Source: Escherichia coli
Lineage (GTDB): Bacteria > Pseudomonadota > Gammaproteobacteria > Enterobacterales > Enterobacteriaceae
Reading direction: 5' to 3' (one strand)
Assembly: GCF_003790525.1 (NCBI RefSeq)
Contig: NZ_CP033635.1
Length of the DNA: 64,000 bases
The notes beneath the pieces are model-generated. The model was not told the origin of the DNA. It worked only from the letters and a program-made list of their open reading frames with translations, and searched no databases. Position numbers and translations under genes: made by a program. Of this stretch, positions 9,703 to 27,692 are shown one piece after another; within the stretch, counting starts at the first letter, position 1; each line of letters starts with the position of its first letter.

Positions 9703-9704
9703 GA

Positions 9705-12563
9705 TTAACCCTCCGCTCCGGTGATAACAGCAATTACCTGAATGTAGGGTTCTTTTTCAGTCGTCATGGTGTCCTCAATCCATTCGATATAGCTGTCAAA
9801 ATTGTGTTCGATTTCGCGTTGTCTCTGCTCTTTACGGCTCTGCTTAACTGACAATTGCTGTTTGTTATCGGCAAAATCCAGCTCAAGTTGGCTCAACTGC
9901 CGCCCACGCAAAACGTCCAGCTTTTGCAGATGCTCATTCAGTTGCTGGTTAATGTGCGTTTCAAACGCATTCCGATCATGGATGAATACCTCCCGGGCAT
10001 GAGCAATAGCCGCTTCCAGTAAATCCTGCTGGCGCTGGTGATTACGATCTTTACCGCCGCTGTTAGTCAGCTTGTTACTCAACTGCGGATGACGTTGTAA
10101 AAACTCAGCAAATGGCTGACTGCCGATTAGCGATTCACGGTTAAAGCTCACCACTATCCACGGGTTCACCATCGGATGTGATTTACGGTTCGGGAATAAC
10201 CCGGAAAGAATGAAGTGATCTTCATCGGGTTCAAGCAGGTATGGCAGACGGATAACCGGTGCCTGATGACGACCAAAAGCCGAAGAGATTTTATCGTCCA
10301 GCCACTGCACTACCGGGTTGATTTGCCAGAGATACTGCACATCGGGCCAGGCATGTTGCTCACCGCGAGCGCGTGCAATCGCGTCGGTGATGACGGTTTT
10401 ATCCTGACTTAAATAGAGCTGCCAGTTCTCCGGCGCGATTTCAGGCGGTAGCTGATTGAAGCGGCGGCGTAACTCCTCCGGCGCCACCAGCGACAAGGTA
10501 TTATCAGGCAAGGTTTCATACTGGATAGTTTGACCACTGGCTTTCAGGTAACCCAATGCTCTTTCGCAGTACGCCTGTTCGCTGGCAAACAAGCTGGTGT
10601 CTGTTTCGGTGACCATTGAGGCATCGCTGGAAACCGCACTGCATATTTCGCCAAACAGATCATGTTCGGCGCTTTCCGAGACGTTGCTGTTCAGCAGTTG
10701 ATCAAACAGGCTGGCACCATCATCCTGCATCATGAACTCTGCAACCTGCTCTTCTTCCTCTTCCTGGGTAAATTTGCCGGTAAACTCCGAACTGTCCCCA
10801 ATGTTCTTCTGCGCCTGTTCGTCTTTGTTGATCAACACTTCCAGTACGCGCATATCGCCATTGATCTGCGGTTCGCTGGCCTCGGTAAGCAGATAGCGGA
10901 TTTGAGGCTGATGTTTTTGCCCATAGCGGTCAATACGCCCGTTACGTTGCTGGAATACCATCAACGACCACGGAATATCAAAGTGAATCATTTTGTGGCT
11001 AAGGTGATGCAGGTTGATCCCTTCAGATGCCACATCCGAACAAACCAGAAGACGCAACGGCGACTGCGTTTTACCAAAGGCTTCTACGGTTTCCATCAAC
11101 ACCGTATCGCCCTGATCGCCGCGCAGCGTGGCGATCTGATCATCTTTCAATTTCAGATCCGCTCGCAGTTGCTGTTCGAGGAACTCCAGCGTTTTAATGC
11201 TTTCAGTGAAGATCACCAGGCGATCTTCCGTGTTATTGGCTTTCCAGGCGAGGTCTTTTCGGATGGTGTCGAGCAGCAACTGGTATTTGCTAAACTGGCT
11301 GGCATCAATGTTATTCAGCGCCAACAGCAATGACTCCAGTTCGTTGATCTGGCTCTGGCTATTATGATCTTTACGGCTCTCAAGACGCTTCAGACGATTA
11401 GCCACTACGCTGGCACACGCCATCGGGCTGGAAAATAGCGCTTTTTCGAGGGTTATCTTGAACAGACGACCTTTGTTAGACTGGGCCTGTTCATCGTCAT
11501 CATCACGGAACTGACTCTCAACCAGGCGACGGTATGCTTCTTCTTCGGCACCGGATGCCAGGCGAGTCAGTTTGACAATATTGCGCTCGGGGAACTCGCC
11601 GGACATCTGATCTTTCACGTCTTTTTTGAAGCGACGGACAACCAGATTTTTATCGGCAAAGTCGGCGTATTCATACTCTTTCGGGTTGGCGATCGCCGTC
11701 GGGTCAAGCATGTTCATCAGGCTGGCAAAACTTTCAGCCTTACCATCATGCGGCGTCGCTGAAAGCATAATCAGCGTATCGCTACGCCCGGCGAGCAGTT
11801 TTGCCAGTTTACTGCGTAACGAACTGGTTCCACGTTCTGCGACGTTATGGGCCTCATCAATGACAATAATATCCCACCAGGCATTTTCCAGATGGTGACG
11901 ATATTCAATGTCTTGTTTCAGCGTATCGATGGAGATAATGGTCTTGTCAAAATAGTGAAACGGGTTGTGGTTGGTAGGGATGCGGTTACGCACCTTTTGT
12001 AAACCAGCAGAATCCAGGCGGGTCAATGGGATCGCAAAACGGCTCCAGAACTCCTTCTGGAATTGTGTCAGCATCGATTTAACCGCCAGAACCAGAATAC
12101 GTTTTCCGCGCCCACGACGGATCAGCTCCGAAACCAGAATACCGGCTTCCAGCGTTTTACCCAGACCGACAGCGTCGGCAATGAGTATCCGCTGGCGCGG
12201 CTGTGCCAGAGCCATCCGCGTAGGGTCGAGCTGAAACGGCATGGAATCCATCGCCGCCAGATGACCAAAATGGACTTTACTGTCTGTCGGTACGCGTTGG
12301 CGTAACTGACTTTCGATATACAACTGCGCCGCCTGATAATTGGCGGATTCATCTTCCACCAAATGCGTTTTTGCGGGATCCAGGATCTCTACTTTTTGTT
12401 CCAGTTTGGTCAGAAATAACCCTTCTTTACCGCGCACAAGCTCTGAAATACCATCGCAGGTCAGCAAATACCCACCATCACCACTGTCATCCGCCCGGCG
12501 AATACGCCATTCGGCATCACGAATAACCACCCGCATACCAGGTGCATAATTTTGCTTATTCAT
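9705..12563 (-). CDS. drmD: SNF2-family helicase (DrmD-like)
   Basis: 952 aa ORF with motif I ADAVGLGKT, motif II IIVIDEAHN and the C-terminal helicase motif QRNGRIDRYGQ. First gene of a three-gene minus-strand operon. Confidence 0.65.
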   Translation of the reverse strand: MNKQNYAPGMRVVIRDAEWRIRRADDSGDGGYLLTCDGISELVRGKEGLFLTKLEQKVEILDPAKTHLVEDESANYQAAQLYIESQLRQRVPTDSKVHFGHLAAMDSMPFQLDPTRMALAQPRQRILIADAVGLGKTLEAGILVSELIRRGRGKRILVLAVKSMLTQFQKEFWSRFAIPLTRLDSAGLQKVRNRIPTNHNPFHYFDKTIISIDTLKQDIEYRHHLENAWWDIIVIDEAHNVAERGTSSLRSKLAKLLAGRSDTLIMLSATPHDGKAESFASLMNMLDPTAIANPKEYEYADFADKNLVVRRFKKDVKDQMSGEFPERNIVKLTRLASGAEEEAYRRLVESQFRDDDDEQAQSNKGRLFKITLEKALFSSPMACASVVANRLKRLESRKDHNSQSQINELESLLLALNNIDASQFSKYQLLLDTIRKDLAWKANNTEDRLVIFTESIKTLEFLEQQLRADLKLKDDQIATLRGDQGDTVLMETVEAFGKTQSPLRLLVCSDVASEGINLHHLSHKMIHFDIPWSLMVFQQRNGRIDRYGQKHQPQIRYLLTEASEPQINGDMRVLEVLINKDEQAQKNIGDSSEFTGKFTQEEEEEQVAEFMMQDDGASLFDQLLNSNVSESAEHDLFGEICSAVSSDASMVTETDTSLFASEQAYCERALGYLKASGQTIQYETLPDNTLSLVAPEELRRRFNQLPPEIAPENWQLYLSQDKTVITDAIARARGEQHAWPDVQYLWQINPVVQWLDDKISSAFGRHQAPVIRLPYLLEPDEDHFILSGLFPNRKSHPMVNPWIVVSFNRESLIGSQPFAEFLQRHPQLSNKLTNSGGKDRNHQRQQDLLEAAIAHAREVFIHDRNAFETHINQQLNEHLQKLDVLRGRQLSQLELDFADNKQQLSVKQSRKEQRQREIEHNFDSYIEWIEDTMTTEKEPYIQVIAVITGAEG

Positions 12564-12642
12564 CGGTTTTTCTGTCTATTTGGGGCAGTGGCGGTAACGT
12601 CATCCTGAAAAATGTGGCGCGGCACACTGCGATAAAAAAGAG

Positions 12643-12667
12643 GGCCTTAAAGATATCATGAAGGCCC
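12643..12667 (-). terminator. Candidate intrinsic terminator between the druE-like gene and the SNF2 operon
   Basis: Perfect 7-bp inverted repeat GGGCCTT-N12-AAGGCCC, followed on the minus strand by CTCTTTTTTAT. Confidence 0.4.
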
Positions 12668-12786
12668 CCGGCAAAGTGACAAAATGGGAGGGAATGCGCA
12701 TAATTTGCGCATGATTTTCAAACAAAAATTATTAAAAAGTGAGCTGGGTCAACTCCCCTGGAAGATATCCTCAGGGGAGCAATTAT

Positions 12787-15700
12787 TTATCCAGCGATAA
12801 TATAACTCCTAAGGTCATTACCCGGGGCAACAGCTCGCGCTCGCGTGTTTGCCAGCCGTTCAACTTGCTGCGGTACTCGTAGAGCAAAATCAAAGAAGGT
12901 GTCTTCAATACAGCGCCAGTAGCTAAGCCCCATGTCGAGCAGGACATAATGCTGACTGCCATCGCTGAAGGTGACTGTCAGTTCTCGTCCATGCTCCGTA
13001 CTCTGGTTATCCCCCGTTAACCAGCTAATTGCTCCCAGCCACGCTGGCCCCAGATATCCTTCTTCAAGTAAAGTGGTCACAACCTGCTGACGATCTTCCT
13101 CATTAAGCCACGCGTTATAGAGAGCGTCGTGTTGGCGAGAGTTGTAATCCAATTTTTTGACGCAAACAGTGAGGCTGGCGCGTTCCGCCATTCCCTGTTC
13201 AACCAGCTCAGTTAAGATTTCACCTAACAAACGCGCCGTGAATGGGCTATTAAGATAACGATCGCTGTACTCAACATGCGTTATCTCTTTGTGGCGGGTA
13301 AATGCCTGCTTCCAGCCAGCGTGCTGTTGCGTGACTAACGACCAGAAACGCGAACCAAAACCTTCCAGCGGCCCGTCCAGTTGTTCGCAGAGATTGATGC
13401 GCACCGCCCCGGTGGGTAAGGCGGGCAGTAAATCTTCTGCACTTAAGATCTGACCCAAGAAGGTTTTTCCGGACGTTCCTTTAAGTGTCACTACTGGTGA
13501 AGACGCACTTTGTCCCCATAATTCACCAGGTGCAACGGTAGCGCTGTCGTCTGCGGCCCACTGTTGGCTTTGCCCTTCGCGAGTCACCTGCGCAAGCCAG
13601 CGTCCCTTTCCTTGCATGAGTTGCGCAGTGGCAATGGATTTCACTTGTAAGCGTCCTCCCGGCATCGCCGCCAACGCGGAAAGCTGATGTCTGGAGCTAT
13701 CAGTTAAGTTTGCCAACGGCGTGGCCACCAGCAACTCAACATGCCCACCGGAGGAGGCAAACTGGAGCAACTCTTTAAATAATGGCCATTGGGCAAAATC
13801 CCACTGTTCCTGCGGCCCCGCAAGAACCAGCGAGCAGGAGTCATAAATCTCGCTGTTCAGGCATTGCGCAATACGTAAACTCAGCGGGTTAGTTTCAACC
13901 CGGCTACCATCGCCGAAGTACTGATATTCTGGCGCGAGGTTAAGTCGCTGCAACCGTACATTGGTAAGCAGGGTTAATGCATGGTGACGATCTAATCTGT
14001 TGACATAATGCTGACTGTCGTAGCTGAGCAAGCAGTGGTGACAGAATTTATCGCAACTGCAATCGAGCAATTTTCTGGCGTAATTAAAGACATCAGCCCA
14101 ATGGTCGATCAATTGCACTGCATAACCTGCACCACCCGCATTATTGTCGTAAATGAAGATGGAATATCCGGTATAGCCATTGATATCGCGCGCTTGCTGC
14201 GTCGTCACGCCCAGCTCAGTATTTTCGATACCCAATTTATGCGCTAACCCTTCACGCAAAGCGACCGCAAGGGATCGCGCGGCAACCTCATCACGGATCA
14301 ACAGGCCATTATCATCATTGAGTTGCAGCTCAACCATATCTGTACGACTGCTATACCCCAACCACAGATCTTTATGCACATGACCGTGGCACAATTTATT
14401 GCTCCCCTGACGATCGTTACTGCCCCCTCGCAACAGGTAATGCGTATTTTCCCTCTCTGGGTTCTTAAGATTTTCAGGGGTACGCTGGGGTTGATTTTGA
14501 GATTCTGCCCGACCACATGAGAGGCAAATTGCGTAGCCGTGCCCAAATTCCCCTTCACTGAAGTGGAACAATTCCCCACTATGGCTAAAACGGTAACGTC
14601 CTAGCCCAGCATCGGGTAAAGAAACCCACACCGAAGACGGTACAAGAACACGTGGATCTTTCCAGGGAAGTTGTGCAGGCATGGATACATCATTATGCGC
14701 CTGATAACGGATATCTGTCGCAAAACCAACAGGCTGTAAATAACGCTTCACATCAAGTTGCTGTATATCCGCTTTGCAGTGACTACATTCGACAGGACGG
14801 GTAGTACTGGTTGCCCCCGCACCACATTTACGACAATGCCAGAACCACGGAATATGATGATCGCCTGACAGCTCCTGCCCGCTGGCAAGTACCTTGCCAA
14901 GCATAATGCCCGAGGAACGATATACTTTTCCGCCCAATACCACATCTGCACCTGGAGCATACTCGCGTAATGCTGTAGGCAAATCACGGCTGGGCAATTT
15001 TTCAATACGACGAGAAAAGCTTTCTCCCCCTTCATTAGGGTCAGCCTGAGTGGCTTTTATTGCGCGACGTTTTTCCAGCTCATCTGCCGTCAGATAATTG
15101 AAATTGACGACGCCAACCGGGAAACCATGCCCCGGCAGGAACGCTTCACTAATGAGTTTAGAAAACAGATATGCACCGCGATAATCACGAAGCTGATAAG
15201 CGATGGCTTTACCTGCTGGCGTTTCTTCCCACGCGCTGTTATCCGCCTTCAACGCTTCGATATTTTCCAACAGTATCGCAAGTTGGCTTCTCCAGCGGAT
15301 ATCAACCTGCTGCATCATTGCTTGTGTGCGGGTCAAGAGCTGGGTTGCCGTCAATGACATCAGGACGGTTCCCTGAGTAAGGCGTTTAAGTTTATCCGCC
15401 AGCTGATCGGCCTGGTTATTTAACCAATGGAGAAAACGAAGACACTGGCTCTCATCACCTTCAAAGAACCATTTGCAACTCAGTTTTGTCGCATCAGGAA
15501 CTTCAGCTCGTAAAAACAGACCTAAAACCAGGGCATTAACATGTCGTTGAACAATACTGCTGCTCCCAAAACGAACCCGTGGCGCACTGGCAGTAGTGTT
15601 GAACGCCCAGAGGGGGTCTTTGAATACCTCCATTCCATGCGCCGTGTTTTTACATAACGTAATGGCAGCAGATGCACTCTCTCCACGTCGACCCGCGCGG

Positions 15701-18700
15701 CCTGCACGCTGCAAATAATTTGCCGGAGCTGGAGGAACGTTGTTCATTGCCACCAAACTCATACCACCAATGTCCACCCCCATCTCCATGGTCGTGGAGC
15801 AGTTCAGCACATTAACTTTGCCTGACTTAAATTGTTTTTCATTAAACTGGTTCTGCTCAGGCGTTCTCTGCGCAGAGTGTTCCTCCAGACGATACCAGCT
15901 ATCTTTCAGGGCCAGTCGGTCGCTGCGAGTAGACCATAATCCTTCCTCGCGGGCATGTTGAATCAGCGCATTACTTTCCAGCCACTCCAGACGTTCTTCT
16001 CGGGCGATTTCTCCACCACCAGACAAACGCCAGTGACGTACAGGAAGCTCAGGCATTTCAATCAACACTGCTTTTTCAGGTGCAATTTCTTTGCTACCCG
16101 GCAAATACGGAGAGTATCCCAGTAACGTGACGTCTAACGCACGTCGAGTATAGGGGCAACGCCACACTTGCTTTGGACTGTAAAATTCAGCTTGTTGTTT
16201 AATATCCAGCTGATAACCCGACTCAAACTGACGTAAGCAGGGTCGAATTGCATCCCAGACCTCAATCATTAAGTGGTTAACTAACGATTTCCAGTGAGCC
16301 TGCTCAGGTTGTATTGCCGGAAAGACTGCAATTAATAGCTTAATGACCCGGTTATAATGGCGATCGCGTATTTGTGGCCAAAGTTGATCACGTTTCTGCC
16401 CTTTGTTTTTTTTATCTGGACCCTGGAGCATTTTTACCGGGAAACGAGCCCCCATCCAGCGAGGGTATTGCTCGTTTTCGTAAAAAACGGCACTGTTTTC
16501 ACGTATAAAGAAATCAAGAGTAATCTTCAATAAATTACGCCATTCCGCTAATTGCTTATCGGGATCGGGTAATAATGTCTTCCAGTCCTGCGGGCAGGTT
16601 GTAACTTTATCAATAAATGGATAGTGAATGGCTACCAGACCCAGACTTTCGAGGGTCCAGGCATTTTTAGGGCGGCGACCAAACTCACTGTATAAACAAA
16701 AATCTGCAAACTGTTGTTTAGTAAGATCAAGCCCAGACAATTCTTTAAAACTGCCTCTCATTCTATCGGCAAGGTCCACACTGCCAACCAGCTGTTCAGA
16801 CAGTGTTTGCCATGACATGGTTTTCTTCTGCTGATTGCCAGAGTTAGCCTGGAGTATTTGCATCGCTTCAGCATGATCCGGGCTTAAGGAACTCACCATC
16901 GGCTCGATAATTTTAAGTGCCTGAATGTCCGCCGGGCTAAGCTCTTCATTAGCAACCATCGCTTTTTTCAGCGCGTCAATAGAGTTTTTTAAAGGAAGGA
17001 TAGAAAACTGGGTAATAAAACTCTCTAACAATGCGCAGTGTGCCGGGCTGAGCTTTGCTGATGGCTCATTAATATTGGCCAACTCCTGGTAACAAAGAGC
17101 TCGCAACGTCGCTTTATCGGCATCCTGCTGTAAGCGGGCAGAAATGCGGGCAGTGCCCTGACGTGAATCCGTAAAGGTGAGCAGACGTCGACCATTAAAC
17201 GGTCCTAACTGCTCTTCTCTTGTCTGCGGTAATGGTGAAAACTCCAGCAGAGTAGGAATAATTTCATTTAAAAAAAAGGGCGCGCCAAGTCGAAGCGGAC
17301 GGAATAAAGGATTATTTTTTCGTTGGGTGTCACCACAGCAAACACAAGCAAAGGAATTATTACGTCCCTCACCTCGAGATTCCGGTCTTAACAGGTTTAT
17401 TTCATAGTGCTTTTGCGCTTCACTATCAATTTTCCCCGCCGTCGTTTCTTCCAGAGAAATGATATATTTTTCACCATCGATCGCAATCAGACGATCAAAT
17501 TGAGAGTTATTGTCTAATTCGTCGTTGTCTTCATCTTCAGAATAAACATCTACATCAAGAGCAAATTCATCCACTTCGGCAGCGGCGGGTTGCGCTACCA
17601 ACCAGTTCGTTCCATCACCGCGCACCTCCTCTTTGGCAGACAAATAAGCTGAACCACACCCGGAGCAACGTAAAACTTCAAATACCGGCGCACCACAGTC
17701 ACAATATTGGCGCTGCTCAAACCATACCTGACCAAATGGCCAGTCACTCTGATTTAATTCATGCGCTTTATGTGAGCATTGTTTGTTTGAACATGCCCAT
17801 AGACCCGCCAGTGTTCTGATAAACCCATGCATACGTAATGGCGTAAAAGCCAGTTCACCTTCTCGCGATCTCGCCATTAGGTCGAGGAGTTGCAGTAACT
17901 CACGGTGATTAATATCTGGCCAGGTTCTTCTGGCAACATTGAGCAACTCACTCAAACGTACTGCCTGCCGTCCGGGATGAGTTAACGCCTGACGCAATTG
18001 CTGGGCCACACGGTAATGACAAAGCTGTTGGTAAAGATCCTGAGGGCTCAAAGATTTAAGAGAAGTTAAAGATGTGGGATATTCATGACGAATCAGCGAC
18101 TCCGATACCCGCGGTATTTGTCGATAGCCGCGAACCACTTTGACATCACGTTCTGTAACGCCCGCGAGATCAGCGACAAATTTAGCAAGCTCCTTATTAC
18201 CTTCAGGAGAGTCTTCACCAATAGTGGCAGAGGTCGCGATAATCTGCACAGGTTTATCTGTGCCCGGTCCAACATTGAAAGCCTGCATAACACGACGTAA
18301 AAGCAGCGCTAACTCAGCAGCCTGAGAACCAATATAACTATGGGCTTCATCCAGGACGATATACTTTAACATCCCCTGAGACTTTTCGATGATTGGGGCA
18401 TCTTTACGACGAATCAGCATATATTCCAGCATGGTGGTATTCGTCACCATGATGGAAGGTGGTGCTTCGTAAATGGCTTCCCGACTCAAAGCTTGTTCAG
18501 GTACTTTCAACTGATCTTCCTGAACTTCGTATTTGGTATGCCGGGTTTCGCCATTATATAGCGCGAAGCGTATTTTCCCCTTAAATCCGCGCGTCCATTC
18601 GCGAAGCCGCTCCTGTTGGCTGTTAATTAATGCATTTAACGGATACAAGAAAATAGCTTGTGTCCCTGTTAGTGACTGACGGGTCGATTTTTGCTGACGA

Positions 18701-19110
18701 ATAAGATCTTCCAGAACCGGTACCATAAAGCATTCTGTTTTCCCGGATCCCGTACCGCTGCTCACTAACAAGGATTTTTTGTCTTCCAGAATCGTTCGCC
18801 ACGCCGTAAGTTGATGACGAAATGGCACCGGCGCTTTGCTCAATGCATCAACCAGCGGGCTGGAAATTAGCTTGTCCCGCAAATCCTCCATTGTTTCATC
18901 CGCAGGCATCCAGCCGAACGTGCTTTCGAATACCGGGTCTGCAAGCAGTGACCCCTCCTGACCGGGAGGCTGGAAATATTGTGATTCCAGATAATGAGTC
19001 AACGACTTGCTCCGCAATGCCAACTGACTTACCACCGACCTCACCGCGCGCTGATGAAGCTGATTTAGAAGTGGCGCATAATGCAGTTGCTGAACGTCCA
19101 TCAATGACAT
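12787..19110 (-). CDS. druE: DruE-like large helicase (Druantia type III-like)
   Basis: 2107 aa ORF with Walker A SSGTGSGKTECFM, DEAH-type box VLDEAHSY and a C-terminal Cys-rich region (CLSCG..., CSCDKFCHHC). Overlaps the upstream gene by 10 nt. Confidence 0.6.
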   Translation of the reverse strand: MSLMDVQQLHYAPLLNQLHQRAVRSVVSQLALRSKSLTHYLESQYFQPPGQEGSLLADPVFESTFGWMPADETMEDLRDKLISSPLVDALSKAPVPFRHQLTAWRTILEDKKSLLVSSGTGSGKTECFMVPVLEDLIRQQKSTRQSLTGTQAIFLYPLNALINSQQERLREWTRGFKGKIRFALYNGETRHTKYEVQEDQLKVPEQALSREAIYEAPPSIMVTNTTMLEYMLIRRKDAPIIEKSQGMLKYIVLDEAHSYIGSQAAELALLLRRVMQAFNVGPGTDKPVQIIATSATIGEDSPEGNKELAKFVADLAGVTERDVKVVRGYRQIPRVSESLIRHEYPTSLTSLKSLSPQDLYQQLCHYRVAQQLRQALTHPGRQAVRLSELLNVARRTWPDINHRELLQLLDLMARSREGELAFTPLRMHGFIRTLAGLWACSNKQCSHKAHELNQSDWPFGQVWFEQRQYCDCGAPVFEVLRCSGCGSAYLSAKEEVRGDGTNWLVAQPAAAEVDEFALDVDVYSEDEDNDELDNNSQFDRLIAIDGEKYIISLEETTAGKIDSEAQKHYEINLLRPESRGEGRNNSFACVCCGDTQRKNNPLFRPLRLGAPFFLNEIIPTLLEFSPLPQTREEQLGPFNGRRLLTFTDSRQGTARISARLQQDADKATLRALCYQELANINEPSAKLSPAHCALLESFITQFSILPLKNSIDALKKAMVANEELSPADIQALKIIEPMVSSLSPDHAEAMQILQANSGNQQKKTMSWQTLSEQLVGSVDLADRMRGSFKELSGLDLTKQQFADFCLYSEFGRRPKNAWTLESLGLVAIHYPFIDKVTTCPQDWKTLLPDPDKQLAEWRNLLKITLDFFIRENSAVFYENEQYPRWMGARFPVKMLQGPDKKNKGQKRDQLWPQIRDRHYNRVIKLLIAVFPAIQPEQAHWKSLVNHLMIEVWDAIRPCLRQFESGYQLDIKQQAEFYSPKQVWRCPYTRRALDVTLLGYSPYLPGSKEIAPEKAVLIEMPELPVRHWRLSGGGEIAREERLEWLESNALIQHAREEGLWSTRSDRLALKDSWYRLEEHSAQRTPEQNQFNEKQFKSGKVNVLNCSTTMEMGVDIGGMSLVAMNNVPPAPANYLQRAGRAGRRGESASAAITLCKNTAHGMEVFKDPLWAFNTTASAPRVRFGSSSIVQRHVNALVLGLFLRAEVPDATKLSCKWFFEGDESQCLRFLHWLNNQADQLADKLKRLTQGTVLMSLTATQLLTRTQAMMQQVDIRWRSQLAILLENIEALKADNSAWEETPAGKAIAYQLRDYRGAYLFSKLISEAFLPGHGFPVGVVNFNYLTADELEKRRAIKATQADPNEGGESFSRRIEKLPSRDLPTALREYAPGADVVLGGKVYRSSGIMLGKVLASGQELSGDHHIPWFWHCRKCGAGATSTTRPVECSHCKADIQQLDVKRYLQPVGFATDIRYQAHNDVSMPAQLPWKDPRVLVPSSVWVSLPDAGLGRYRFSHSGELFHFSEGEFGHGYAICLSCGRAESQNQPQRTPENLKNPERENTHYLLRGGSNDRQGSNKLCHGHVHKDLWLGYSSRTDMVELQLNDDNGLLIRDEVAARSLAVALREGLAHKLGIENTELGVTTQQARDINGYTGYSIFIYDNNAGGAGYAVQLIDHWADVFNYARKLLDCSCDKFCHHCLLSYDSQHYVNRLDRHHALTLLTNVRLQRLNLAPEYQYFGDGSRVETNPLSLRIAQCLNSEIYDSCSLVLAGPQEQWDFAQWPLFKELLQFASSGGHVELLVATPLANLTDSSRHQLSALAAMPGGRLQVKSIATAQLMQGKGRWLAQVTREGQSQQWAADDSATVAPGELWGQSASSPVVTLKGTSGKTFLGQILSAEDLLPALPTGAVRINLCEQLDGPLEGFGSRFWSLVTQQHAGWKQAFTRHKEITHVEYSDRYLNSPFTARLLGEILTELVEQGMAERASLTVCVKKLDYNSRQHDALYNAWLNEEDRQQVVTTLLEEGYLGPAWLGAISWLTGDNQSTEHGRELTVTFSDGSQHYVLLDMGLSYWRCIEDTFFDFALRVPQQVERLANTRARAVAPGNDLRSYIIAG

Positions 19111-22100
19111 ACTCCTGCTTGTTCAAAATAATATTGATAGATTACCCCTAATTGCTGCGGGGCTTGCTGATAGTGGAATTCAAAAAGCGCAGACAGTTGA
19201 TGTATCAAGTTATTATCTTTTTGGGTTAACAGCGCTGCGACTAACATCAAATTAAAACGTTTTTCAAGCCGTGAGTGATATTTATTTTTAATCCAAAGCT
19301 TATTAAAAACAGATTTTAACTCTGGAGTAATCGCACTAGACCAAAGTTCTTTAGGGAAGATACTGATACGCCCAAAGCTGTCGGGGTTCCTTAATAGCAT
19401 CTGTTTAGCTTCATTAAACTGCTCACGACTAACAGTTGGCAAGACATTACAACCGGCTGGTAGGAGTTTGCTATATGTAAGTAACATATTCGCAATGGGA
19501 GCCAGACGACGATCGATATGTGCACGATGGTTCATAAAAGCAATAAAGGGTTGCAATATATGTAATGCTAATGTTTTATCGTTAATCTGTTTTTCCAGAT
19601 AAGCCCAACACTTTTGAAAAACATCTTTCCAGATTGAAACGGGAATCCATCCCCATGAAAAGGGTAATTCTTCCTGTATATCATAAATCGTATCGCTATC
19701 ACCAGAAAGACATGATGATATTAACAACTGAACAACTACGCGGTAATTACTCGAAATACCTCTGAACAAATCCAGATCCAGCAAGGATAAGCCATTATTC
19801 ATTTTGTATTTCTTAATATACTCCGTTAATAAACAGCAATAATTTTGCAAAGGATTGTTATCTATTTCAAAAATTAGCTCATTAAAATATTTTTTTCGCT
19901 GTTCGGAATCCGCTTCGCATAGAGCATTAAGTAATAAATCATTTGTCTGTAATACAGGTAGCCCCCATTTAATTACTGGTGCAATGCGAGCTGTACCATC
20001 AAGTTTCCCCACAATTAACCATGGGCTATCCTGAACATTCAGAGCTGAAAGATCATAAGCAAATTCATCTTTTTTTAGCAACGATATGTGTAAGCCAGGA
20101 TCCTTAAGAGAAATAGCATCAACAACCAGCTCGTCTATTCTATTTGCAGGAAAAACAACAGAATTTTTTATATCAACCAGTAACCCTTGATCGTGTTCAA
20201 TAAAACTACCATCGTAGCGTTTAATACTGAGTGTTGCTTTATCCTTTCCAAATCTGTCAGAGTAAAAATCAACACATAATGTACTATTGCTGCTCCATGC
20301 ACATGCCAGCATAGCATTTAGCAAATTATAGTTCTCATAAAGTGAAATTTGTTTTAATTTGTCATTGCATCCTGATAAAAGAGGAAGGTCGGCATGTAAA
20401 TAACGGAATTTTTCAGCTACTGGATTTTCATCCAACAACTCGATATTAAGATATCCTCTTCCAGCACAAGATATGGTTAACAACTCAGCATCTATTCCAT
20501 GCAAATGCGCTATAGATGCCACACCATCAAAATGAACAGAACCATCATGAGTTACAAATCGGCCACCGCTAACCGGCTTAGGTAATAATAGTTTAAGATT
20601 AGAACCATCTTTCCAGGAGACCCGTAAATCAACGGTATTTTCCAGCATCTCCGATGAATTATAATAAATAGCACACTCGTTTTGTGAATAATCGGACTTA
20701 AGTGTTACTTTTTCATTGTTTGAATATTTGTCAATTCTAGTATCCGTTATACCAGAAAGCATTATGATGCCTTGCTGAGCACTCTCAGGTATAATATTAA
20801 TATCGAAGTCAGCTGGTAAAACTACAACTTTACCGCTAAATAAAACCTCATCATTAACTATTCGTCTGACTTCTATCTGTCCTTTTGGCATTTTTGATGC
20901 GACAGAATACCAGGCATTGTTACCTGAACGAATGGAACGCCAAAAAAGTTCTTTCTCCGGTACAATGCCATATTGCAGATCCTTTTTCCAACCGATCTTC
21001 GGCCAGGCTCGATGGACAGGATAATCCGATTTAACCAGTTCAACTTCTGTCGATTTAATATAATATTCAATCGCAGAATCATAAAGTTGCTGGGTGCGAA
21101 TTGTACAAACTGCACCATCATGTAAAACAACGCTAAATACTCCACTTATTTTAGTTAAGCTGCGTTCACTGTTTTTCAGCAACCTTGGGATATCAAACTC
21201 ACCTTCTCCACTAATATCTAAATGGCTATTTTTCGGTAGCGAAATAAACAGAGCATTTAGCCTGGAACTCACAGACCCCATACCGACAAGTTTTAGCTGC
21301 GATTCACTCTCATTCATCGCTTCAAAAACCCAGGGGAGTTCTTCAGTAAGTTCATAACCGCCTTTTGGAATTGTGTGGCCTAACAGAATTGGACCTTCAT
21401 GAAGCGACAACGAGATTTCGGCCATTGCATCTGCACCAGAGAGCTTTTGCATCGCAATAGGTAATAACTCGACCCGCCAATCTTGCTGCTCATAACGGCT
21501 TAGCATTGCCAACCTTGCCCCGCCATTTCTCCATTTTCCTGAAATGATGAGTCGGGTCTGCTCCGGCTGAATATTGCATTCAAACAAAGAGGTTAACTGT
21601 TCTGTACGCATTGTGGCCGGGAATCGGAACCGGGCATCACAATACCAACTGTCATCAACATCGACCCAGATTCTTTCAACCTGAAGACTACTTGCACTGC
21701 GTATTTCAGAAGATTGAGAAAGTAATCGCCTTACAATCTCTGCAGCATTCGCTTCGGGGAGAACGAGTGGAAGTTGAAGGTGCCAGTCTGGAGAGAGCTT
21801 ACGTAATGCAGAAACGGGATCACTGCTTTGAGGTGGATGCTCACTAAGTAATCGGCAGAGAGTCTCGCAGAATTCACCGGCTATTTCATAGACCAGTTCG
21901 TTTTGCATTGTGACAGGAATCGTATCGCCTAATTCTTGTGCAATTTTAGCGGCAGGATATTGAGATGCTTGCCCACGAAGCGCCTGATATATCCTTCTGA
22001 AATAGGTAATCAAATAACCGCTCTCATTTTCAATCATGCGGATAGGTAAACCACCTTCACAAGCCAGTGTATGCAGATAACCCGAAGCTTGCCCCAGGTT

Positions 22101-22460
22101 TCTTATCTTTCTTTTCCAGTAGCGAATGCCATCATTAACCAGCTTCTGTCGATGAACATACGGAACTTTCCAGTCAATAGAATCTAAAATTGTGTCCCAT
22201 TTAGGGTGTCCGACCGTATGAGTCCGGCGGATAAACTCTGCGGCATATATGCTAAATAGAACATCGCTATAGGAAATGAATATCGTTCTTGGATAACTAC
22301 GGGGGGCATATGTACGCAGTAGTTCTGCCAAACTTTCGTACTCTGTATCAGTACAACGGTAAGCATATAACGCCCGTCCATCAGCTCCGGATAATGAACG
22401 GCGACTAAAAAACATGTTAAGCCATTGCAAAAGTGGGTTAACTGGAGTTTTCACAAGCAA
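19101..22460 (-). CDS. druH: Large protein of unknown function, DruH-like (partner of DruE)
   Basis: 1119 aa ORF immediately upstream of and overlapping the DruE-like gene, AT-rich. Assignment is by size and context only; no catalytic motif recognised. Confidence 0.45.
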   Translation of the reverse strand: MLVKTPVNPLLQWLNMFFSRRSLSGADGRALYAYRCTDTEYESLAELLRTYAPRSYPRTIFISYSDVLFSIYAAEFIRRTHTVGHPKWDTILDSIDWKVPYVHRQKLVNDGIRYWKRKIRNLGQASGYLHTLACEGGLPIRMIENESGYLITYFRRIYQALRGQASQYPAAKIAQELGDTIPVTMQNELVYEIAGEFCETLCRLLSEHPPQSSDPVSALRKLSPDWHLQLPLVLPEANAAEIVRRLLSQSSEIRSASSLQVERIWVDVDDSWYCDARFRFPATMRTEQLTSLFECNIQPEQTRLIISGKWRNGGARLAMLSRYEQQDWRVELLPIAMQKLSGADAMAEISLSLHEGPILLGHTIPKGGYELTEELPWVFEAMNESESQLKLVGMGSVSSRLNALFISLPKNSHLDISGEGEFDIPRLLKNSERSLTKISGVFSVVLHDGAVCTIRTQQLYDSAIEYYIKSTEVELVKSDYPVHRAWPKIGWKKDLQYGIVPEKELFWRSIRSGNNAWYSVASKMPKGQIEVRRIVNDEVLFSGKVVVLPADFDINIIPESAQQGIIMLSGITDTRIDKYSNNEKVTLKSDYSQNECAIYYNSSEMLENTVDLRVSWKDGSNLKLLLPKPVSGGRFVTHDGSVHFDGVASIAHLHGIDAELLTISCAGRGYLNIELLDENPVAEKFRYLHADLPLLSGCNDKLKQISLYENYNLLNAMLACAWSSNSTLCVDFYSDRFGKDKATLSIKRYDGSFIEHDQGLLVDIKNSVVFPANRIDELVVDAISLKDPGLHISLLKKDEFAYDLSALNVQDSPWLIVGKLDGTARIAPVIKWGLPVLQTNDLLLNALCEADSEQRKKYFNELIFEIDNNPLQNYCCLLTEYIKKYKMNNGLSLLDLDLFRGISSNYRVVVQLLISSCLSGDSDTIYDIQEELPFSWGWIPVSIWKDVFQKCWAYLEKQINDKTLALHILQPFIAFMNHRAHIDRRLAPIANMLLTYSKLLPAGCNVLPTVSREQFNEAKQMLLRNPDSFGRISIFPKELWSSAITPELKSVFNKLWIKNKYHSRLEKRFNLMLVAALLTQKDNNLIHQLSALFEFHYQQAPQQLGVIYQYYFEQAGVCH

Positions 22461-22671
22461 CCTGCCTTCCTTTGATACAATTCGTAACAGGTTACTATCA
22501 TCATAAAAAAGCTCAACCCGATGAACTCGCTAAAAATGAGACAAATCATTTATATCTCGAAAAAACTTGTTACAATCATGAGCGCTACACCGAACTTAAC
22601 CATATAAATTATGTGTGTTTTGTTTATTTTTTAAACAATTACAACTATCCATTATTTACACAGGTATCAAA

Positions 22672-24324
22672 ATGTTAGCGCAGCTTTTTGAGCAGTTGTT
22701 TCAATCGATAGACTCTACACTGATCACCAATATTTTCATCTGGGCTGTTATATTCGTATTTTTATCAGCGTGGTGGTGTGACAAAAAAAATATACATAGT
22801 AAGTTTAGAGAATATGCTCCAACCTTAATGGGGGCATTAGGTATTCTGGGTACTTTCATTGGTATTATTATTGGGTTACTCAATTTTAATACTGAAAGTA
22901 TTGATACCAGCATCCCCGTATTATTAGGCGGCCTAAAAACAGCATTCATTACAAGCATTGTAGGTATGTTTTTTGCCATTTTATTTAATGGAATGGATGC
23001 TTTCTTTTTTGCCAATAAACGAAGTGCGTTAGCAGAAAATAACCCTGAATCTGTTACACCTGAACATATCTATCATGAATTAAAAGAGCAGAACCAGACT
23101 CTGACTAAATTAGTCTCGGGTATTAACGGTGATAGTGAAGGTTCTCTTATTGCTCAAATAAAATTACTACGTACTGAGATTAGCGATTCCTCGCAGGCAC
23201 AATTAGCTAATCACACTCATTTCAGTAATAAGCTTTGGGAACAACTTGAACAATTTGCAGATCTAATGGCAAAAGGTGCTACAGAACAAATTATTGATGC
23301 TTTACGACAAGTCATTATTGATTTTAATGAAAATTTAACTGAACAGTTTGGTGAAAACTTTAAAGCACTTGATGCCTCTGTAAAAAAACTTGTTGAGTGG
23401 CAGGAAAATTATAAAACGCAAGTTGAGCTGATGTCAGAACAATATCAACAAAGTGTCGAGTCTCTGGTTGAAACAAAAACTGCGGTTGCCGGGATTTGGG
23501 AAGAATGTAAAGAAATTCCTCTGGCTATGTCTGAACTGCGTGAAGTGCTTCAGGTGAACCAACATCAAATCAGCGAACTCTCCCGCCATTTAGAAACCTT
23601 TGTCGCCATCCGCGATAAAGCTACAACCGTATTACCTGAAATACAGAACAAAATGGCTGAAGTGGGTGAACTGCTGAAATCCGGAGCTGCAAATGTTAGT
23701 GCATCTCTTGAGCAAACCAGCCAGCAAATACTTCTTAATGCAGATTCAATGCGCGTGGCCCTGGATGAAGGTACCGAAGGATTCAGACAATCGGTTACCC
23801 AAACACAACAAGCATTTGCCTCGATGGCACATGATGTCAGCAATTCCTCCGAAACTCTAACCAGCACGTTAGGTGAAACAATTACTGAAATGAAACAAAG
23901 TGGTGAAGAATTCCTGAAGTCACTAGAGTCGCACTCGAAAGAATTGCATAGAAATATGGAACAAAATACGACTAATGTAATTGATATGTTCAGTAAGACT
24001 GGTGAAAAGATTAACCATCAACTATCCAGTAATGCCGATAATATGTTTGATTCAATCCAGACATCATTTGATAAGGCAAGTGCAGGGCTGACTTCTCAAG
24101 TCAGAGAATCAATTGAAAAATTTGCTCTATCCATCAACGAGCAGTTACATGCTTTTGAGCAAGCAACTGAACGTGAGATGAACCGTGAAATGCAATCATT
24201 AGGTAATGCTCTGCTTTCAATCAGCAAAGGTTTTGTCGGTAACTATGAAAAACTTATTAAAGATTACCAAATAATTATGGGGCAGTTACAAGCATTAATT
24301 TCTGCTAATAAACATCGAGGGTAA
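22672..24324 (+). CDS. zorA: ZorA-like MotA/ExbB-family membrane protein with long coiled-coil tail (Zorya type II-like)
   Basis: N-terminal hydrophobic helices (IFIWAVIFVFLSAWW, LMGALGILGTFIGIIIGLL, AFITSIVGMFFAILF) followed by about 400 aa of Q/E/L-rich coiled coil. The internal ATG at 22672 is preferred over the track start at 22615. Confidence 0.6.
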   Translation: MLAQLFEQLFQSIDSTLITNIFIWAVIFVFLSAWWCDKKNIHSKFREYAPTLMGALGILGTFIGIIIGLLNFNTESIDTSIPVLLGGLKTAFITSIVGMFFAILFNGMDAFFFANKRSALAENNPESVTPEHIYHELKEQNQTLTKLVSGINGDSEGSLIAQIKLLRTEISDSSQAQLANHTHFSNKLWEQLEQFADLMAKGATEQIIDALRQVIIDFNENLTEQFGENFKALDASVKKLVEWQENYKTQVELMSEQYQQSVESLVETKTAVAGIWEECKEIPLAMSELREVLQVNQHQISELSRHLETFVAIRDKATTVLPEIQNKMAEVGELLKSGAANVSASLEQTSQQILLNADSMRVALDEGTEGFRQSVTQTQQAFASMAHDVSNSSETLTSTLGETITEMKQSGEEFLKSLESHSKELHRNMEQNTTNVIDMFSKTGEKINHQLSSNADNMFDSIQTSFDKASAGLTSQVRESIEKFALSINEQLHAFEQATEREMNREMQSLGNALLSISKGFVGNYEKLIKDYQIIMGQLQALISANKHRG

Positions 24325-24330
24325 TCGATC

Positions 24331-25038
24331 ATGGATAAGATTATAGGGAAACAATTACCTAAAAAAGATCAAGATAATGAACACTGGGTATCCATGTCAG
24401 ACCTAATGGCAGGGCTGATGATGGTTTTTATGTTCATATCTATTGCTTATATGCACTACGTACGTATTGAAAAAGAAAAAATTAAAGAAGTTGCCGTAGC
24501 CTACGAGAATGCTCAGTTACAGCTTTATAATGCTCTGGATATTGAGTTTGCAAAGGATTTGCAAGACTGGGATGCAGAGATCGATAAGCAGACTCTGGAG
24601 GTTCGATTTAAATCACCGGATGTTTTATTTGGCTTAGGAAGCACAGAGCTTAAACCAAAGTTTAAACTCATTCTTGACGACTTCTTTCCTCGCTACCTAA
24701 AAGTTCTTGATAATTATCAAGAACATATTACTGAAGTCCGCATTGAAGGTCACACAAGTACTGACTGGACTGGAACAACGAATCCTGATATTGCTTATTT
24801 TAATAATATGGCACTATCACAAGGTCGTACACGTGCAGTATTACAATACGTTTATGATATAAAAAATATCGCGACACACCAACAATGGGTTAAAAGTAAA
24901 TTTGCCGCAGTAGGTTATTCATCTGCACATCCCATTCTTGATAAAACCGGCAAGGAGGATCCTAATCGCTCTCGTCGTGTCACCTTCAAAGTTGTAACAA
25001 ATGCCGAGTTGCAGATTAGAAAGATTATTCAGGAGTAA
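24331..25038 (+). CDS. zorB: ZorB-like MotB/OmpA-family protein
   Basis: Single N-terminal transmembrane segment (LMAGLMMVFMFISIAYM) and a C-terminal OmpA-like peptidoglycan-binding signature (EGHTSTDWTG...ALSQGRTRAVLQYV). Starts 6 nt after the zorA-like stop. Confidence 0.65.
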   Translation: MDKIIGKQLPKKDQDNEHWVSMSDLMAGLMMVFMFISIAYMHYVRIEKEKIKEVAVAYENAQLQLYNALDIEFAKDLQDWDAEIDKQTLEVRFKSPDVLFGLGSTELKPKFKLILDDFFPRYLKVLDNYQEHITEVRIEGHTSTDWTGTTNPDIAYFNNMALSQGRTRAVLQYVYDIKNIATHQQWVKSKFAAVGYSSAHPILDKTGKEDPNRSRRVTFKVVTNAELQIRKIIQE

Positions 25039-25041
25039 GAG

Positions 25042-26145: not shown

Positions 26146-26354
26146 ATTCCGAAACTCCGTGAAAGTTAAGACTTTCACGGAAGATAAATAAAATTTTCCT
26201 GATTTGTGACTCAAATTACAAAAGTCGTTTATGGCATAACTTGTCTGTTTTTTTGGTGTAATAGGTATAAAGGCATATGCTATGGTTAGCCTTATATTTA
26301 AAACTTTCCTCATACGGGTGAAGGTTAAAGCTTGGTAGATAGGTTACAGTCACA

Positions 26355-26853
26355 ATGAATAAAGCAATAACGGTGCTTGCTATAATGATGGCTTCATTTT
26401 CCGTAAATGCGTATGTATTACCGGAAACGCCTGTGCCATTTAAAAGTGGTACCGGAGAAATTGATAACAACACTGTCTACATTGGTTTAGGTAGCGCAGG
26501 TACGGCATGGTACAAGCTGGAGAAACAGACCAAAGATAAAAAAATGGACAGCGTTAGCTGCATTTCCTGGTGGACCGAGAGATCAAGCAACCTCTGCATT
26601 TATTGATGGCAATCTGTATGTGTTTGGCGGCATTGGCAAAAACAGCGAGGGCTTGACTCAGGTATTTAATGACGTACACAAATACAACCCCAAAACCAAT
26701 AGCTGGGTTAAATTGATGTCGCACGCGCCGATGGGCATGGCGGGTCATGTGACATTTGTACACAACGGCAAGGCTTATGTTACTGGCGGTGTTAACCAGA
26801 ATATCTTCAACGGCTATTTTGAAGATCTTAACGAAGCTGGAAAAGATTCAACA
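26355..26853 (+). pseudogene. nanM: nanM (N-acetylneuraminate epimerase, Kelch repeat) remnant: frameshifted and 3'-truncated
   Basis: N-terminal signal peptide and Kelch-repeat sequence closely resemble E. coli NanM. The frame breaks in the A8 run at about 26541-26548 (nanM-like sequence continues in another frame), and similarity ends after ...NEAGKDST at about 26853. Confidence 0.7.
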
Positions 26854-26971
26854 TACCGAACGCCGGAGAACTGGACGACGACACCACGAAGCAGTCATTT
26901 CAGTCGGGGGATGATTGTAGACAAATTTGTTGACGCTATTTTGCGGTTTTGGCGTGAAGGGTGAGCATTCA

Positions 26972-27613: not shown

Positions 27614-27692
27614 GGAGAATGTCCTTATACGTTCTCAGAACAGGCAGCAAAAAAACAAATGAGATCAAGGTAATATATCTTCACTTGCAGGC

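What the first reader, a model, noticed from the sequence alone, without database searches (positions are those of the whole stretch)
12787..22460. Druantia type III-like gene pair (DruH-like plus DruE-like helicase)
Seen in sequence: an 1119 aa ORF of unknown function overlaps by 10 nt a 2107 aa helicase with Walker A SGTGSGKTECFM, a DEAH-type box and C-terminal Cys clusters. Established knowledge: Druantia type III consists of DruH and the large helicase DruE. Inference: the pair is a Druantia III system; it sits directly beside the DISARM-like operon, which carries a paralogous helicase.
Basis: partly seen in the sequence, partly recalled or inferred. Interest (0 to 1): 0.65.

Follow-up and report, generated by a model that had tools for sequence, protein, structure and literature searches.

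The report
Known E. coli Druantia III defence operon

Summary
ORF 19101..22460(-) (1119 aa) gives an end-to-end match to the PADLOC DruH3 profile (2541 bits). ORF 12787..19110(-) (2107 aa) does the same for DruE3 (2180 bits, against 38 bits for DrmA). The 9.7 kb is 100% identical to E. coli SMS-3-5, and 545 of 5426 complete E. coli genomes carry it. DruE scores 4862 bits against PDB 9tu7-9tuc (self-score 4910). DruH is about 98% identical to 9tud over the roughly 960 residues of the alignment that were shown. Every catalytic, DNA-contact and ATP-contact residue checked is conserved, apart from one probable misprint in the source paper. The island lies at tRNA-leuX. For alleles 98-98.6% identical, the literature from 2025-26 shows that both genes are needed for direct, non-abortive immunity, and that DruE is a 3'-to-5' DNA helicase that loads on 3'-tailed or forked DNA. 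Still disputed are whether DruE's PLD pocket is a nuclease, and whether DruH is a sensor, an exonuclease or an ssDNA clamp. Novelty: already known. Interest is low.

The parts
19101..22460 (-). druH (1119 aa from TTG; possibly 1117 aa from the GTG at 22454). YjiT / STY4851-ECs_5259 family with no Pfam domain. Published structures show Ig-like domains flanked by N- and C-terminal helical domains.
   Evidence: PADLOC DruH3 PDLC00041, 2541 bits, profile 1-1117/1117. NCBIfam NF038336, 980 bits. No Pfam hit. About 98% identical to PDB 9tud 'DruH' over the ~960 residues of the alignment shown. ATP/ssDNA-site residues N672, Y733, D735, R1031, H1062, R1064 and K1067 are all present.
12787..19110 (-). 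druE (2107 aa as the longest ORF). The likely true start is the ATG at 19101, giving 2104 aa and a 1-nt overlap with the druH stop codon. YprA/MrfA-family SF2 DExH helicase with Zn modules and a C-terminal PLD-like tandem.
   Evidence: PADLOC DruE3 PDLC00037, 2180 bits, profile 4-2051/2055. PDB 9tu7-9tuc, 4862 bits against a self-score of 4910. RefSeq CDS of 6315 nt in SMS-3-5. 28 of 29 published contact or catalytic residues are conserved when numbering is shifted by +3.
18217..18819 (-). DruE RecA1 lobe (Pfam DEAD, aa 98-298). Contains the Walker A motif GTGSGKT (nt 18736-18756) and DEAH (nt 18340-18351).
   Evidence: Pfam PF00270, E = 5e-24. Motifs located. Published motif I and II mutants of the ATCC 8739 allele abolish defence.
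15682..15897 (-). DruE RecA2 lobe core (Pfam Helicase_C, aa 1072-1143). It lies about 770 residues from RecA1 because of large insertions.
   Evidence: Pfam PF00271, E = 1.9e-12. Matches to YprA/MrfA 6znp and to Lhr-type helicases fall here.
14029..14268 (-). DruE MZB (MrfA Zn-binding, formerly DUF1998) domain, aa 1615-1694, containing C1684, C1686, C1690 and C1693.
   Evidence: Pfam PF09369, E = 7.4e-12. Cys positions. The published C1681G/C1683G/C1687G mutant (2104-aa numbering) loses defence.
12790..14010 (-). DruE C-terminal tandem of PLD-like domains (aa 1701-2107), the mark of subtype III-A. It has no canonical HKD motif. The family-invariant residues are D1950-R-Y1952 and H2040-x-R2042.
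22461..22614 (.). 154-bp AT-rich region between druH and the longest zorA ORF, holding the divergent druHE and zorABE promoters (inferred).
   Evidence: Sequence. Consensus promoter-like sites on both strands, which is weak evidence. Divergent transcription is stated for EDL933. Plasmids carrying this 'native promoter' confer defence.
12564..12786 (-). 223-bp spacer between the druE stop codon and the armA start codon. It has a hairpin (CTCCCCTG...CAGGGGAG) just after druE. [quoted passage not shown]
   Evidence: Sequence. A terminator-like site at 12755..12741. Not tested experimentally.

Best explanation
This is an intact chromosomal copy of the E. coli type III-A Druantia anti-phage system, the two-gene operon druH-druE. 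It sits in the leuX-associated defence island known as OI-172 in O157:H7, between Zorya II and ARMADA II.

Shown in the literature for alleles 98-98.6% identical in DNA (ATCC 8739, EDL933) or for orthologues:
- Both genes are necessary, and together they are sufficient, for broad protection against dsDNA phages.
- Immunity is direct: cells survive and the phage is cleared. It does not depend on host methylation.
- Defence needs the DruE ATPase motifs I, II and VI and the MZB zinc site.
- DruE is a dimeric MrfA/YprA-like 3'-to-5' DNA helicase. It loads only on DNA with an exposed single strand (3' tails, forks).

Inferred, and my preferred mechanism:
- Linear, recombination-prone phage replication intermediates expose ssDNA-duplex junctions that the circular, protein-covered host chromosome does not.
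- DruE threads such an end into its closed channel and unwinds the phage genome.
- DruH is held inactive by ATP at physiological concentration and acts on the ssDNA that DruE exposes. It may trim 3' ends, and it docks by its C-terminal helical domain on the DruE stalk.
- The unwound DNA is then destroyed. The agent could be the non-canonical PLD pocket of DruE, DruH, or co-resident nucleases such as ZorE and RecBCD.

Which nuclease does the killing, and whether DruH also senses phage tail or baseplate proteins, is unresolved.
For: Identity of the system:
- Full-length DruH3 and DruE3 profile matches and the YjiT family match.
- Pfam DEAD, Helicase_C and MZB domains in DruE.
- PLD-superfamily fold of the C-terminus.
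- Near-identity to PDB 9tu7-9tuc and 9tud.
- 100% nucleotide identity to E. coli SMS-3-5, a strain named as carrying the three-system island.
- 98.0% identity to O157:H7 alleles and 98.6% to strain KCTC 2571.

Intactness:
- No frameshifts or internal stops.
- 28 of 29 DruE residues and 7 of 7 DruH residues named as functional are conserved. The MZB cysteines are present.

Mechanism from papers:
- Both genes required, helicase and MZB mutants are dead, direct clearance, methylation-independent.
- 3'-to-5' unwinding of 3'-tailed and forked DNA, and dimer structures.
- DruH binds ssDNA and is inhibited by ATP.
- DruH acts as a 3'-5' exonuclease, and a fork-dependent 1:1 DruE-DruH complex forms, in P. 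aeruginosa.
- DruE degrades long DNA.
- Synergy with Zorya II and ARMADA II.
Against: Nothing argues against the identification. The mechanism is contested among the 2026 preprints.
- Himpich et al. saw no DruE nuclease activity and found the PLD domains dispensable for defence. Hu et al. state that the system lacks an apparent nuclease.
- Wu et al. and Loeff et al. report nuclease activity for both DruE and DruH.
- Stable DruE-DruH binding was not seen for the E. coli proteins.
- Loading polarity differs between studies: 3' overhang in E. coli, 5'-overhang junction after DruH trimming in P. aeruginosa.
- The M. smegmatis system was reported to be abortive and triggered by a tail protein.
- No experiment was done on this particular allele.
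Confidence: 0.9

Rival explanations
1. DruH is the infection sensor. Its Ig-like and baseplate-J-like domains recognise late phage structural proteins (baseplate or tail). This drives DruH dimerisation and nicking of branched phage DNA, which creates the ssDNA on which DruE assembles into a higher-order helicase-nuclease. This is a protein-triggered model rather than a purely DNA-structure-triggered one.
For: Wu et al. report several supporting results: structural similarity of DruH residues 1-676 to baseplate J proteins, weak co-immunoprecipitation with Bas37 gp7-like protein, positively selected sites in the Ig-like domains, and dimer-dependent nicking. In M. smegmatis the minor tail protein Gp25 activates the system. 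The window's DruH differs from 9tud at about 2% of positions, while the DruE score sits closer to its self-score. That fits a faster-evolving sensor.
Against: The authors themselves call the evidence indirect. Hu, Himpich and Loeff explain activation through DNA structure alone. Purified proteins act on naked DNA substrates with no phage protein present. I did not test whether the substitutions cluster in the Ig-like domains. A rough count shows no obvious enrichment.
Confidence: 0.3
2. The system does not degrade DNA itself. DruE only unwinds phage DNA, and ATP-released DruH coats the separated strands. This immobilises the genome so that other nucleases (ZorE, RecBCD, ARMADA II, restriction enzymes) can finish it. 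The PLD-like tandem would be structural, or used only for cross-talk with neighbouring systems.
For: Hu et al. propose this model. Himpich et al. found no reproducible nuclease activity, found the PLD domains dispensable, and suggest a role in synergy. The C-terminus lacks a canonical HxK(x)4D motif and no Pfam PLD model recognises it. The best structural match is MITD1, a non-catalytic PLD-like fold. The operon is almost always embedded between Zorya II and ARMADA II.
Against: D1950-R-Y and H2040-x-R2042 are invariant or nearly invariant across 26 homologues that are only 23-32% identical to the query. That argues for a functional pocket. Alanine substitutions of the equivalent P. aeruginosa residues abolish defence and in-vitro degradation. 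Wu et al. see ATP/Mg-dependent degradation by E. coli DruE. druHE alone protects a K-12 strain that lacks restriction systems, Zorya and ARMADA.
Confidence: 0.3
3. [not shown]
Against: Himpich et al. found no effect of a druE deletion on fliC transcript or motility in the same strain. Biochemistry and cryo-EM show a DNA helicase bound to DNA. Deletion and transfer experiments show phage defence. The gene lies in a mobile defence island present in only about 10% of E. coli genomes.
Confidence: 0.03

Closest known systems
[not shown]
   Same: Same two genes, same order and stop/start overlap, and the same flanks (Zorya II upstream and divergent, ARMADA II downstream). DNA is 98.0-98.6% identical. 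The proteins are about 98% (DruH, over the part of the alignment shown) and near-identical (DruE, by bit score). All functional residues checked are conserved.
   Different: Only allelic substitutions, about 20 in DruH relative to 9tud. The window's allele is the SMS-3-5 type, 100% identical. No experiment has been reported on this exact allele.
Pseudomonas aeruginosa type III Druantia (Loeff, Chanez and Jinek 2026)
   Same: Same DruH + DruE architecture, with helicase, DUF1998/MZB and PLD-like domains. The DRY and HxR pocket residues are conserved in the window's DruE, judged by motif and spacing.
   Different: A distant orthologue. C-terminal regions of family members are only 23-32% identical to the query. 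It protects against T-even phages, whereas the E. coli system does not protect against glucosyl-hmC T-even phages. The reported substrate polarity and DruE-DruH complex formation differ.
ARMADA type II ArmC (window 1..4780, partial) and the armABCD operon
   Same: ArmC is a YprA-family DExH helicase with a DUF1998 module and is paralogous to DruE: 24-34% identity over the helicase lobes, with DruE3 as its best PADLOC hit. It is encoded 223 bp downstream and acts synergistically with Druantia III.
   Different: ARMADA has four genes, including an SNF2 helicase (ArmA), a 1640-aa adenine methyltransferase (ArmB) and a UvrD-like ArmD. It has no DruH. The ArmC nuclease domains are reported to be non-PLD.
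DISARM class 1 (DrmA, DrmB, DrmC, DrmD, DrmMI)
   Same: DruE resembles a fusion of DrmA (helicase), DrmB (DUF1998) and DrmC (PLD). Both are activated by ssDNA overhangs.
   Different: Druantia III has no methyltransferase and no SNF2 partner. DrmA profiles score only 35-38 bits on DruE. Defence is methylation-independent.
Bacillus subtilis MrfA / YprA DNA-repair helicase (PDB 6znp)
   Same: Same helicase core with an MZB Zn domain (phmmer E = 1.4e-19). Same 3'-to-5' DNA translocation.
   Different: MrfA is 751 aa, is a repair factor, and works with the MrfB exonuclease. DruE is about three times larger, with dimerisation, duplex-binding, Zn and PLD-like additions.

Membership tests
Druantia type III (DruH + DruE; Doron et al. 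2018 as implemented in PADLOC and DefenseFinder) | A DruE protein: a very large SF2 DExH helicase with a DUF1998/MZB zinc module, belonging to the type III clade | tested here: met
   DruE3 PDLC00037 scores 2180 bits end to end, against 575, 360 and 342 bits for DruE1, DruE2 and DruE4. Pfam finds DEAD, Helicase_C and MZB.
Druantia type III (DruH + DruE; Doron et al. 2018 as implemented in PADLOC and DefenseFinder) | A DruH protein (about 1100 aa, no annotated domains, YjiT / STY4851 family) | tested here: met
   DruH3 PDLC00041 scores 2541 bits over 1-1117/1117. NF038336 scores 980 bits against a cut-off of 150. No Pfam domain. PDB 9tud is named 'DruH'.
Druantia type III (DruH + DruE; Doron et al. 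2018 as implemented in PADLOC and DefenseFinder) | The two genes are adjacent, on the same strand and in one operon, with druH first | tested here: met
   Both lie on the minus strand, with the druH stop overlapping the druE start by 1 or 10 nt.
Druantia type III (DruH + DruE; Doron et al. 2018 as implemented in PADLOC and DefenseFinder) | No type I (DruA-D) or type II (DruM, DruF, DruG) partner genes | tested here: met
   PADLOC scans of the flanking ORFs returned only Zorya II, ARMADA/DISARM-like, restriction, PDC-S11 and Wadjet families.
Druantia type III (DruH + DruE; Doron et al. 2018 as implemented in PADLOC and DefenseFinder) | Confers phage resistance that needs both genes | not testable with these tools
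   Shown for the ATCC 8739 and EDL933 alleles, which are 98.0-98.6% identical in DNA to the window. Not shown for this allele.
Druantia subtype III-A (as opposed to III-B) | DruE carries a C-terminal tandem of PLD-like domains | tested here: met
   [not shown]
YprA / MrfA helicase family | SF2 DEAD/DEAH core plus Helicase_C plus an MrfA Zn-binding (MZB) domain | tested here: met
   Pfam PF00270, PF00271 and PF09369. YprA 6znp, E = 1.4e-19.
   DrmA profiles score only 35-38 bits on a single short stretch. The DUF1998 and PLD-like modules are fused into DruE. There is no methyltransferase in the druHE operon. The nearby methyltransferase belongs to armABCD.

The most novel reading that the evidence does not exclude
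The invariant DRY / HxR pocket in the second PLD-like domain of DruE (D1950-R-Y1952 and H2040-x-R2042 here) may be a genuine, non-canonical PLD-family nuclease site. It would be dispensable when druHE acts alone against some phages but required in its native setting, for example for hand-over of DNA intermediates to ZorE or ARMADA II. That would reconcile the contradictory 2026 reports. A secondary possibility is that the roughly 2% of DruH substitutions in this SMS-3-5-type allele change which phages are recognised.
Probability: 0.3. Interest if true: 0.3.

Novelty: already known. Interest (0 to 1): 0.1.

Why it matters
For discovery purposes it matters little. This is a textbook instance of a defence system that was named in 2018. 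By 2026 it had been characterised genetically, biochemically and structurally, using alleles 98-98.6% identical in DNA from other E. coli strains. Its value is as annotation. It marks the window as the leuX defence island (Zorya II, Druantia III, ARMADA II) that accounts for much of the phage resistance of O157:H7 and other E. coli, which is relevant to choosing phages for therapy. It also gives an intact natural allele in which the open question about the DruE PLD pocket and the role of DruH could be tested.

Tried and rejected
- Pfam on DruH found nothing. Pfam on the DruE C-terminus, and on 25 homologues of it, also found nothing.
- phmmer of the DruE C-terminus against PDB sequences found only DruE itself. 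The PLD assignment therefore could not be made by sequence.
- A regex search for the canonical HxK(x)4D motif found none.
- Single-sequence AlphaFold of the C-terminus gave an unusable model with pLDDT 39.6. It was repeated with a 26-sequence alignment built from the representative-library search.
- The idea that the adjacent 952-aa helicase is the DruE paralogue was rejected, because blastp found nothing below E = 1. The paralogue is ArmC.
- The idea that the helicase is DrmA or DISARM was rejected on profile scores.
- Rfam and tandem-repeat scans found nothing inside 12-23 kb.
- The promoter/terminator consensus scan gave 27 promoter-like sites against 17.4 +/- 3.3 expected, and terminator-like sites at the chance level. 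I treat it as uninformative apart from the sites in the two intergenic spacers.
- I did not retrieve the ATCC 8739 or EDL933 sequences themselves. Identity to the tested alleles is inferred from O157:H7 and KCTC 2571 rows and from the PDB chains. That KCTC 2571 is equivalent to ATCC 8739 is my own recollection and was not verified.
Full report
OBSERVATION. Their longest versions overlap by 10 nt. The quoted motifs are present: SGTGSGKTECFM with the Walker A lysine at K124, DEAH at 254-257, and CxxC pairs at 482, 589, 1426, 1442, 1529 and 1690.

There are two refinements to the start codons. RefSeq and the experimental papers start DruE at the second ATG (19101). That gives 2104 aa and a 1-nt TGATG stop/start overlap, with an AGGAG 10 nt upstream. 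The DruH profile and PDB 9tud begin aligning at codon 3, a GTG here, so the DruH start could be TTG (1119 aa) or GTG (1117 aa).

WHAT IT IS. The upstream protein matches PADLOC DruH3 model PDLC00041 over all 1117 profile positions (2541 bits). The helicase matches DruE3 model PDLC00037 over positions 4-2051 of 2055 (2180 bits). It scores far lower on DruE1 (575), DruE2 (360) and DruE4 (342), and only 35-38 bits on DrmA.

NCBIfam places DruH in the YjiT / STY4851-ECs_5259 family (980 bits against a cut-off of 150). Pfam sees nothing in DruH. In DruE, Pfam finds DEAD (aa 98-298), Helicase_C (aa 1072-1143) and the MrfA Zn-binding domain, formerly DUF1998 (aa 1615-1694).

Both proteins have solved structures. 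DruE scores 4862 bits against PDB 9tu7-9tuc, against a self-score of 4910. DruH is about 98% identical to 9tud, which is deposited as 'DruH', over the roughly 960 residues of the alignment that were shown.

ORIGIN AND CONTEXT. The 9.7 kb is 100% identical to E. coli SMS-3-5. It occurs in 545 of 5426 complete E. coli genomes, and in 505 of them at 80% coverage or more. O157:H7, O55:H7 and O145 alleles are 97.9-98.0% identical, and strain KCTC 2571 is 98.6% identical. Window 1..31299 is 100.000% identical to the SMS-3-5 island.

Upstream and divergent lies Zorya II: zorA2, zorB2 and zorE at 22615..26145. It consists of a DrmD-like SNF2 helicase (9705..12563), a 1640-aa methyltransferase (4780..9702) and a large helicase that runs off the window (1..4780). 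Since 2025 this operon has been named ARMADA type II, armABCD.

It is 24-34% identical to DruE in the helicase lobes, and its best PADLOC hit is DruE3 at 330 bits. The adjacent SNF2 protein ArmA has no significant similarity to DruE.

The whole island lies at tRNA-Leu(CAA) leuX (52979..53063), next to a P4-like satellite. [quoted passage not shown] Wu et al. place this E. coli lineage in their Druantia III 'cluster 11'.

INTACTNESS. There are no frameshifts or internal stops. With a +3 numbering offset, 28 of 29 DruE residues named by Wu et al. as nucleotide or DNA contacts are present. The exception, 'K97', is Q here. It lies at the Q-motif position, so it is probably a misprint or an allelic difference. 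All seven DruH residues named at the ATP/ssDNA site are present: N672, Y733, D735, R1031, H1062, R1064 and K1067. The MZB cysteines whose mutation kills defence are present.

SUBTYPE. Type III-A is distinguished from III-B by a C-terminal tandem of PLD-like domains in DruE. Sequence methods do not see it:
- There is no HKD motif.
- There is no Pfam hit in the query or in 25 homologues.
- There is no PDB sequence hit other than DruE itself.

A single-sequence AlphaFold model failed, with pLDDT 39.6. I then searched the 1.84-billion-protein representative library with aa 1701-2107, which gave 717 hits at E <= 0.001. I aligned 25 full-coverage homologues with the query and obtained a model with pLDDT 89.5.

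In the alignment, D1950, H2040 and R2042 are invariant, and R1951 and Y1952 are nearly invariant, across sequences only 23-32% identical to the query. By motif and spacing, not by a sequence alignment, they correspond to D1917, R1918, Y1919, H1999 and R2001. These form the putative nuclease pocket of P. aeruginosa DruE, whose mutation abolishes defence.

HOW IT WORKS. Several points are shown, either for the near-identical ATCC 8739/NCTC12923 allele or in EDL933:
- Both genes are required, and together they are sufficient.
- Cultures survive even at high multiplicity of infection.
- Defence does not depend on host methylation.
- Helicase motifs I, II and VI and the MZB zinc site are essential.
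- DruE is a dimeric 3'-to-5' DNA helicase of the MrfA/YprA family. It unwinds 3'-tailed and forked DNA but not blunt or 5'-tailed DNA.

The role of DruH and the killing step are disputed:
- Hu et al.: DruH is an ssDNA-binding protein that is switched off by physiological ATP, and the system has no nuclease.
- Himpich et al.: no DruE nuclease activity was seen, the PLD domains are dispensable, and DruH associates with DruE only indirectly.
- Wu et al.: DruH is a sensor with dimer-dependent nicking activity, and DruE degrades long DNA.
- Loeff et al., working on P. aeruginosa: DruH is a 3'-5' exonuclease that creates a 5'-overhang junction, recruits DruE into a 1:1 complex, and both strands are degraded through the PLD pocket.
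- Li and He, working on M. smegmatis: the system blocks genome circularisation, behaves as abortive infection, and is triggered by a minor tail protein.

My preferred synthesis is recognition of ssDNA-duplex junctions on linear or recombining phage DNA, ATP-driven unwinding by DruE, DruH acting on the exposed strand, and then degradation. Two variants are kept as rivals: 'DruH as protein sensor' and 'unwind and immobilise, with other nucleases doing the killing'.

COMPARISON AND NOVELTY. Every sequence-testable defining feature of Druantia type III and of subtype III-A is met. The DISARM definition is not met. The copy differs from the experimentally studied alleles only by allelic substitutions. 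The finding is a correct annotation of an already known and now well-characterised system.

The only open science attached to it belongs to the field rather than to this locus: whether the conserved non-canonical PLD pocket is a real nuclease, and what DruH senses.

OTHER THINGS SEEN.
- An IS256-family element (31300..32614) interrupts jetC of a type III Wadjet system.
- The P4-like satellite at leuX carries a low-GC 710-aa P-loop ATPase with a winged-helix C-terminus and no PADLOC match. It sits in the slot where a related strain carries a TIR protein.
- The same satellite has C4 antisense RNA and isrK matches.

Noticed in passing
window 31300..32614 (within jetC; jetD 29859..30914, jetC 32601..36686 plus tail ORF 30927..31244, jetB 36689..37585, jetA 37588..39054): A 1315-bp IS256-family insertion sequence interrupts jetC of a type III Wadjet system. 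Its transposase is 31334..32542(-), 430 bits to NF033543. It has 30-nt imperfect terminal inverted repeats and an inferred 8-bp target duplication. The JetC3 profile is covered only to position 1358 of 1478. SMS-3-5 has the uninterrupted 1478-aa gene, so Wadjet is probably inactive in this strain.
   Followed up: partly
window 49369..51501 (+): A 710-aa ORF in a 35% GC patch lies between the P4-type integrase (51562..52827) and psu (48423..48995) of a P4-like satellite at leuX. It has an N-terminal P-loop ATPase (Sll1717-like, E = 2e-9, below cut-off) and a C-terminal winged helix (MarR_2, E = 1.8e-4). It has no PADLOC hit. In strain GN03139 the same slot holds a TIR-domain protein. It is therefore a candidate uncharacterised defence gene in the P4 hotspot.
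   Followed up: partly
window 1..12563 (-): ARMADA type II operon: armA (SNF2, 9705..12563), armB (1640-aa methyltransferase, 4780..9702) and the first 1593 aa of armC (1..4780), which runs off the window. armD is outside the window. PADLOC 2023 labels these only as DrmD / REase_MTase_IIG / DruE-like, so an automated run would probably not call the system.
   Followed up: partly
window 22615..26145 (+): A complete Zorya type II operon (zorA2, zorB2, zorE) is transcribed divergently from druHE across a 154-bp AT-rich spacer. This is the published synergy partner of Druantia III.
   Followed up: partly
window 26972..29732: Three more small defence-type genes lie between Zorya II and Wadjet: an HNH endonuclease (26972..27613, -), a phosphorothioate-DNA-binding HNH restriction endonuclease (27693..28622, +), and a PDC-S11 candidate defence protein (28734..29732, -; 375 bits).
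   Followed up: no
window 12001..26000: GC content falls steadily along the divergent operons: about 51% at the 3' end of druE, 46% at its 5' part, 41-43% in druH, and 37-39% in Zorya II. This suggests a mosaic origin or different ages for the modules.
   Followed up: no
window 45964..46240 (-): Rfam finds C4 antisense RNA, its a1/b1 target and isrK inside the P4-like satellite, which is the P4-type immunity RNA region.
   Followed up: no
window 40595..41275 (-): A truncated second P4-type integrase (226 aa, matching positions 59-271 of a 413-position model) sits between the defence island and the intact P4-like satellite. This implies tandem integrations at leuX. Identity to SMS-3-5 ends at 41647.
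   Followed up: no
E. coli genome collection: 17 of the 551 druHE matches are on plasmids, for example a 100-kb plasmid NZ_CP172872.1 at 96.4% identity. Several chromosomal copies are interrupted by IS1, IS2 or IS3 elements. Some RefSeq records still name DruE 'motility-regulating DEAH-box RNA helicase'.
   Followed up: no
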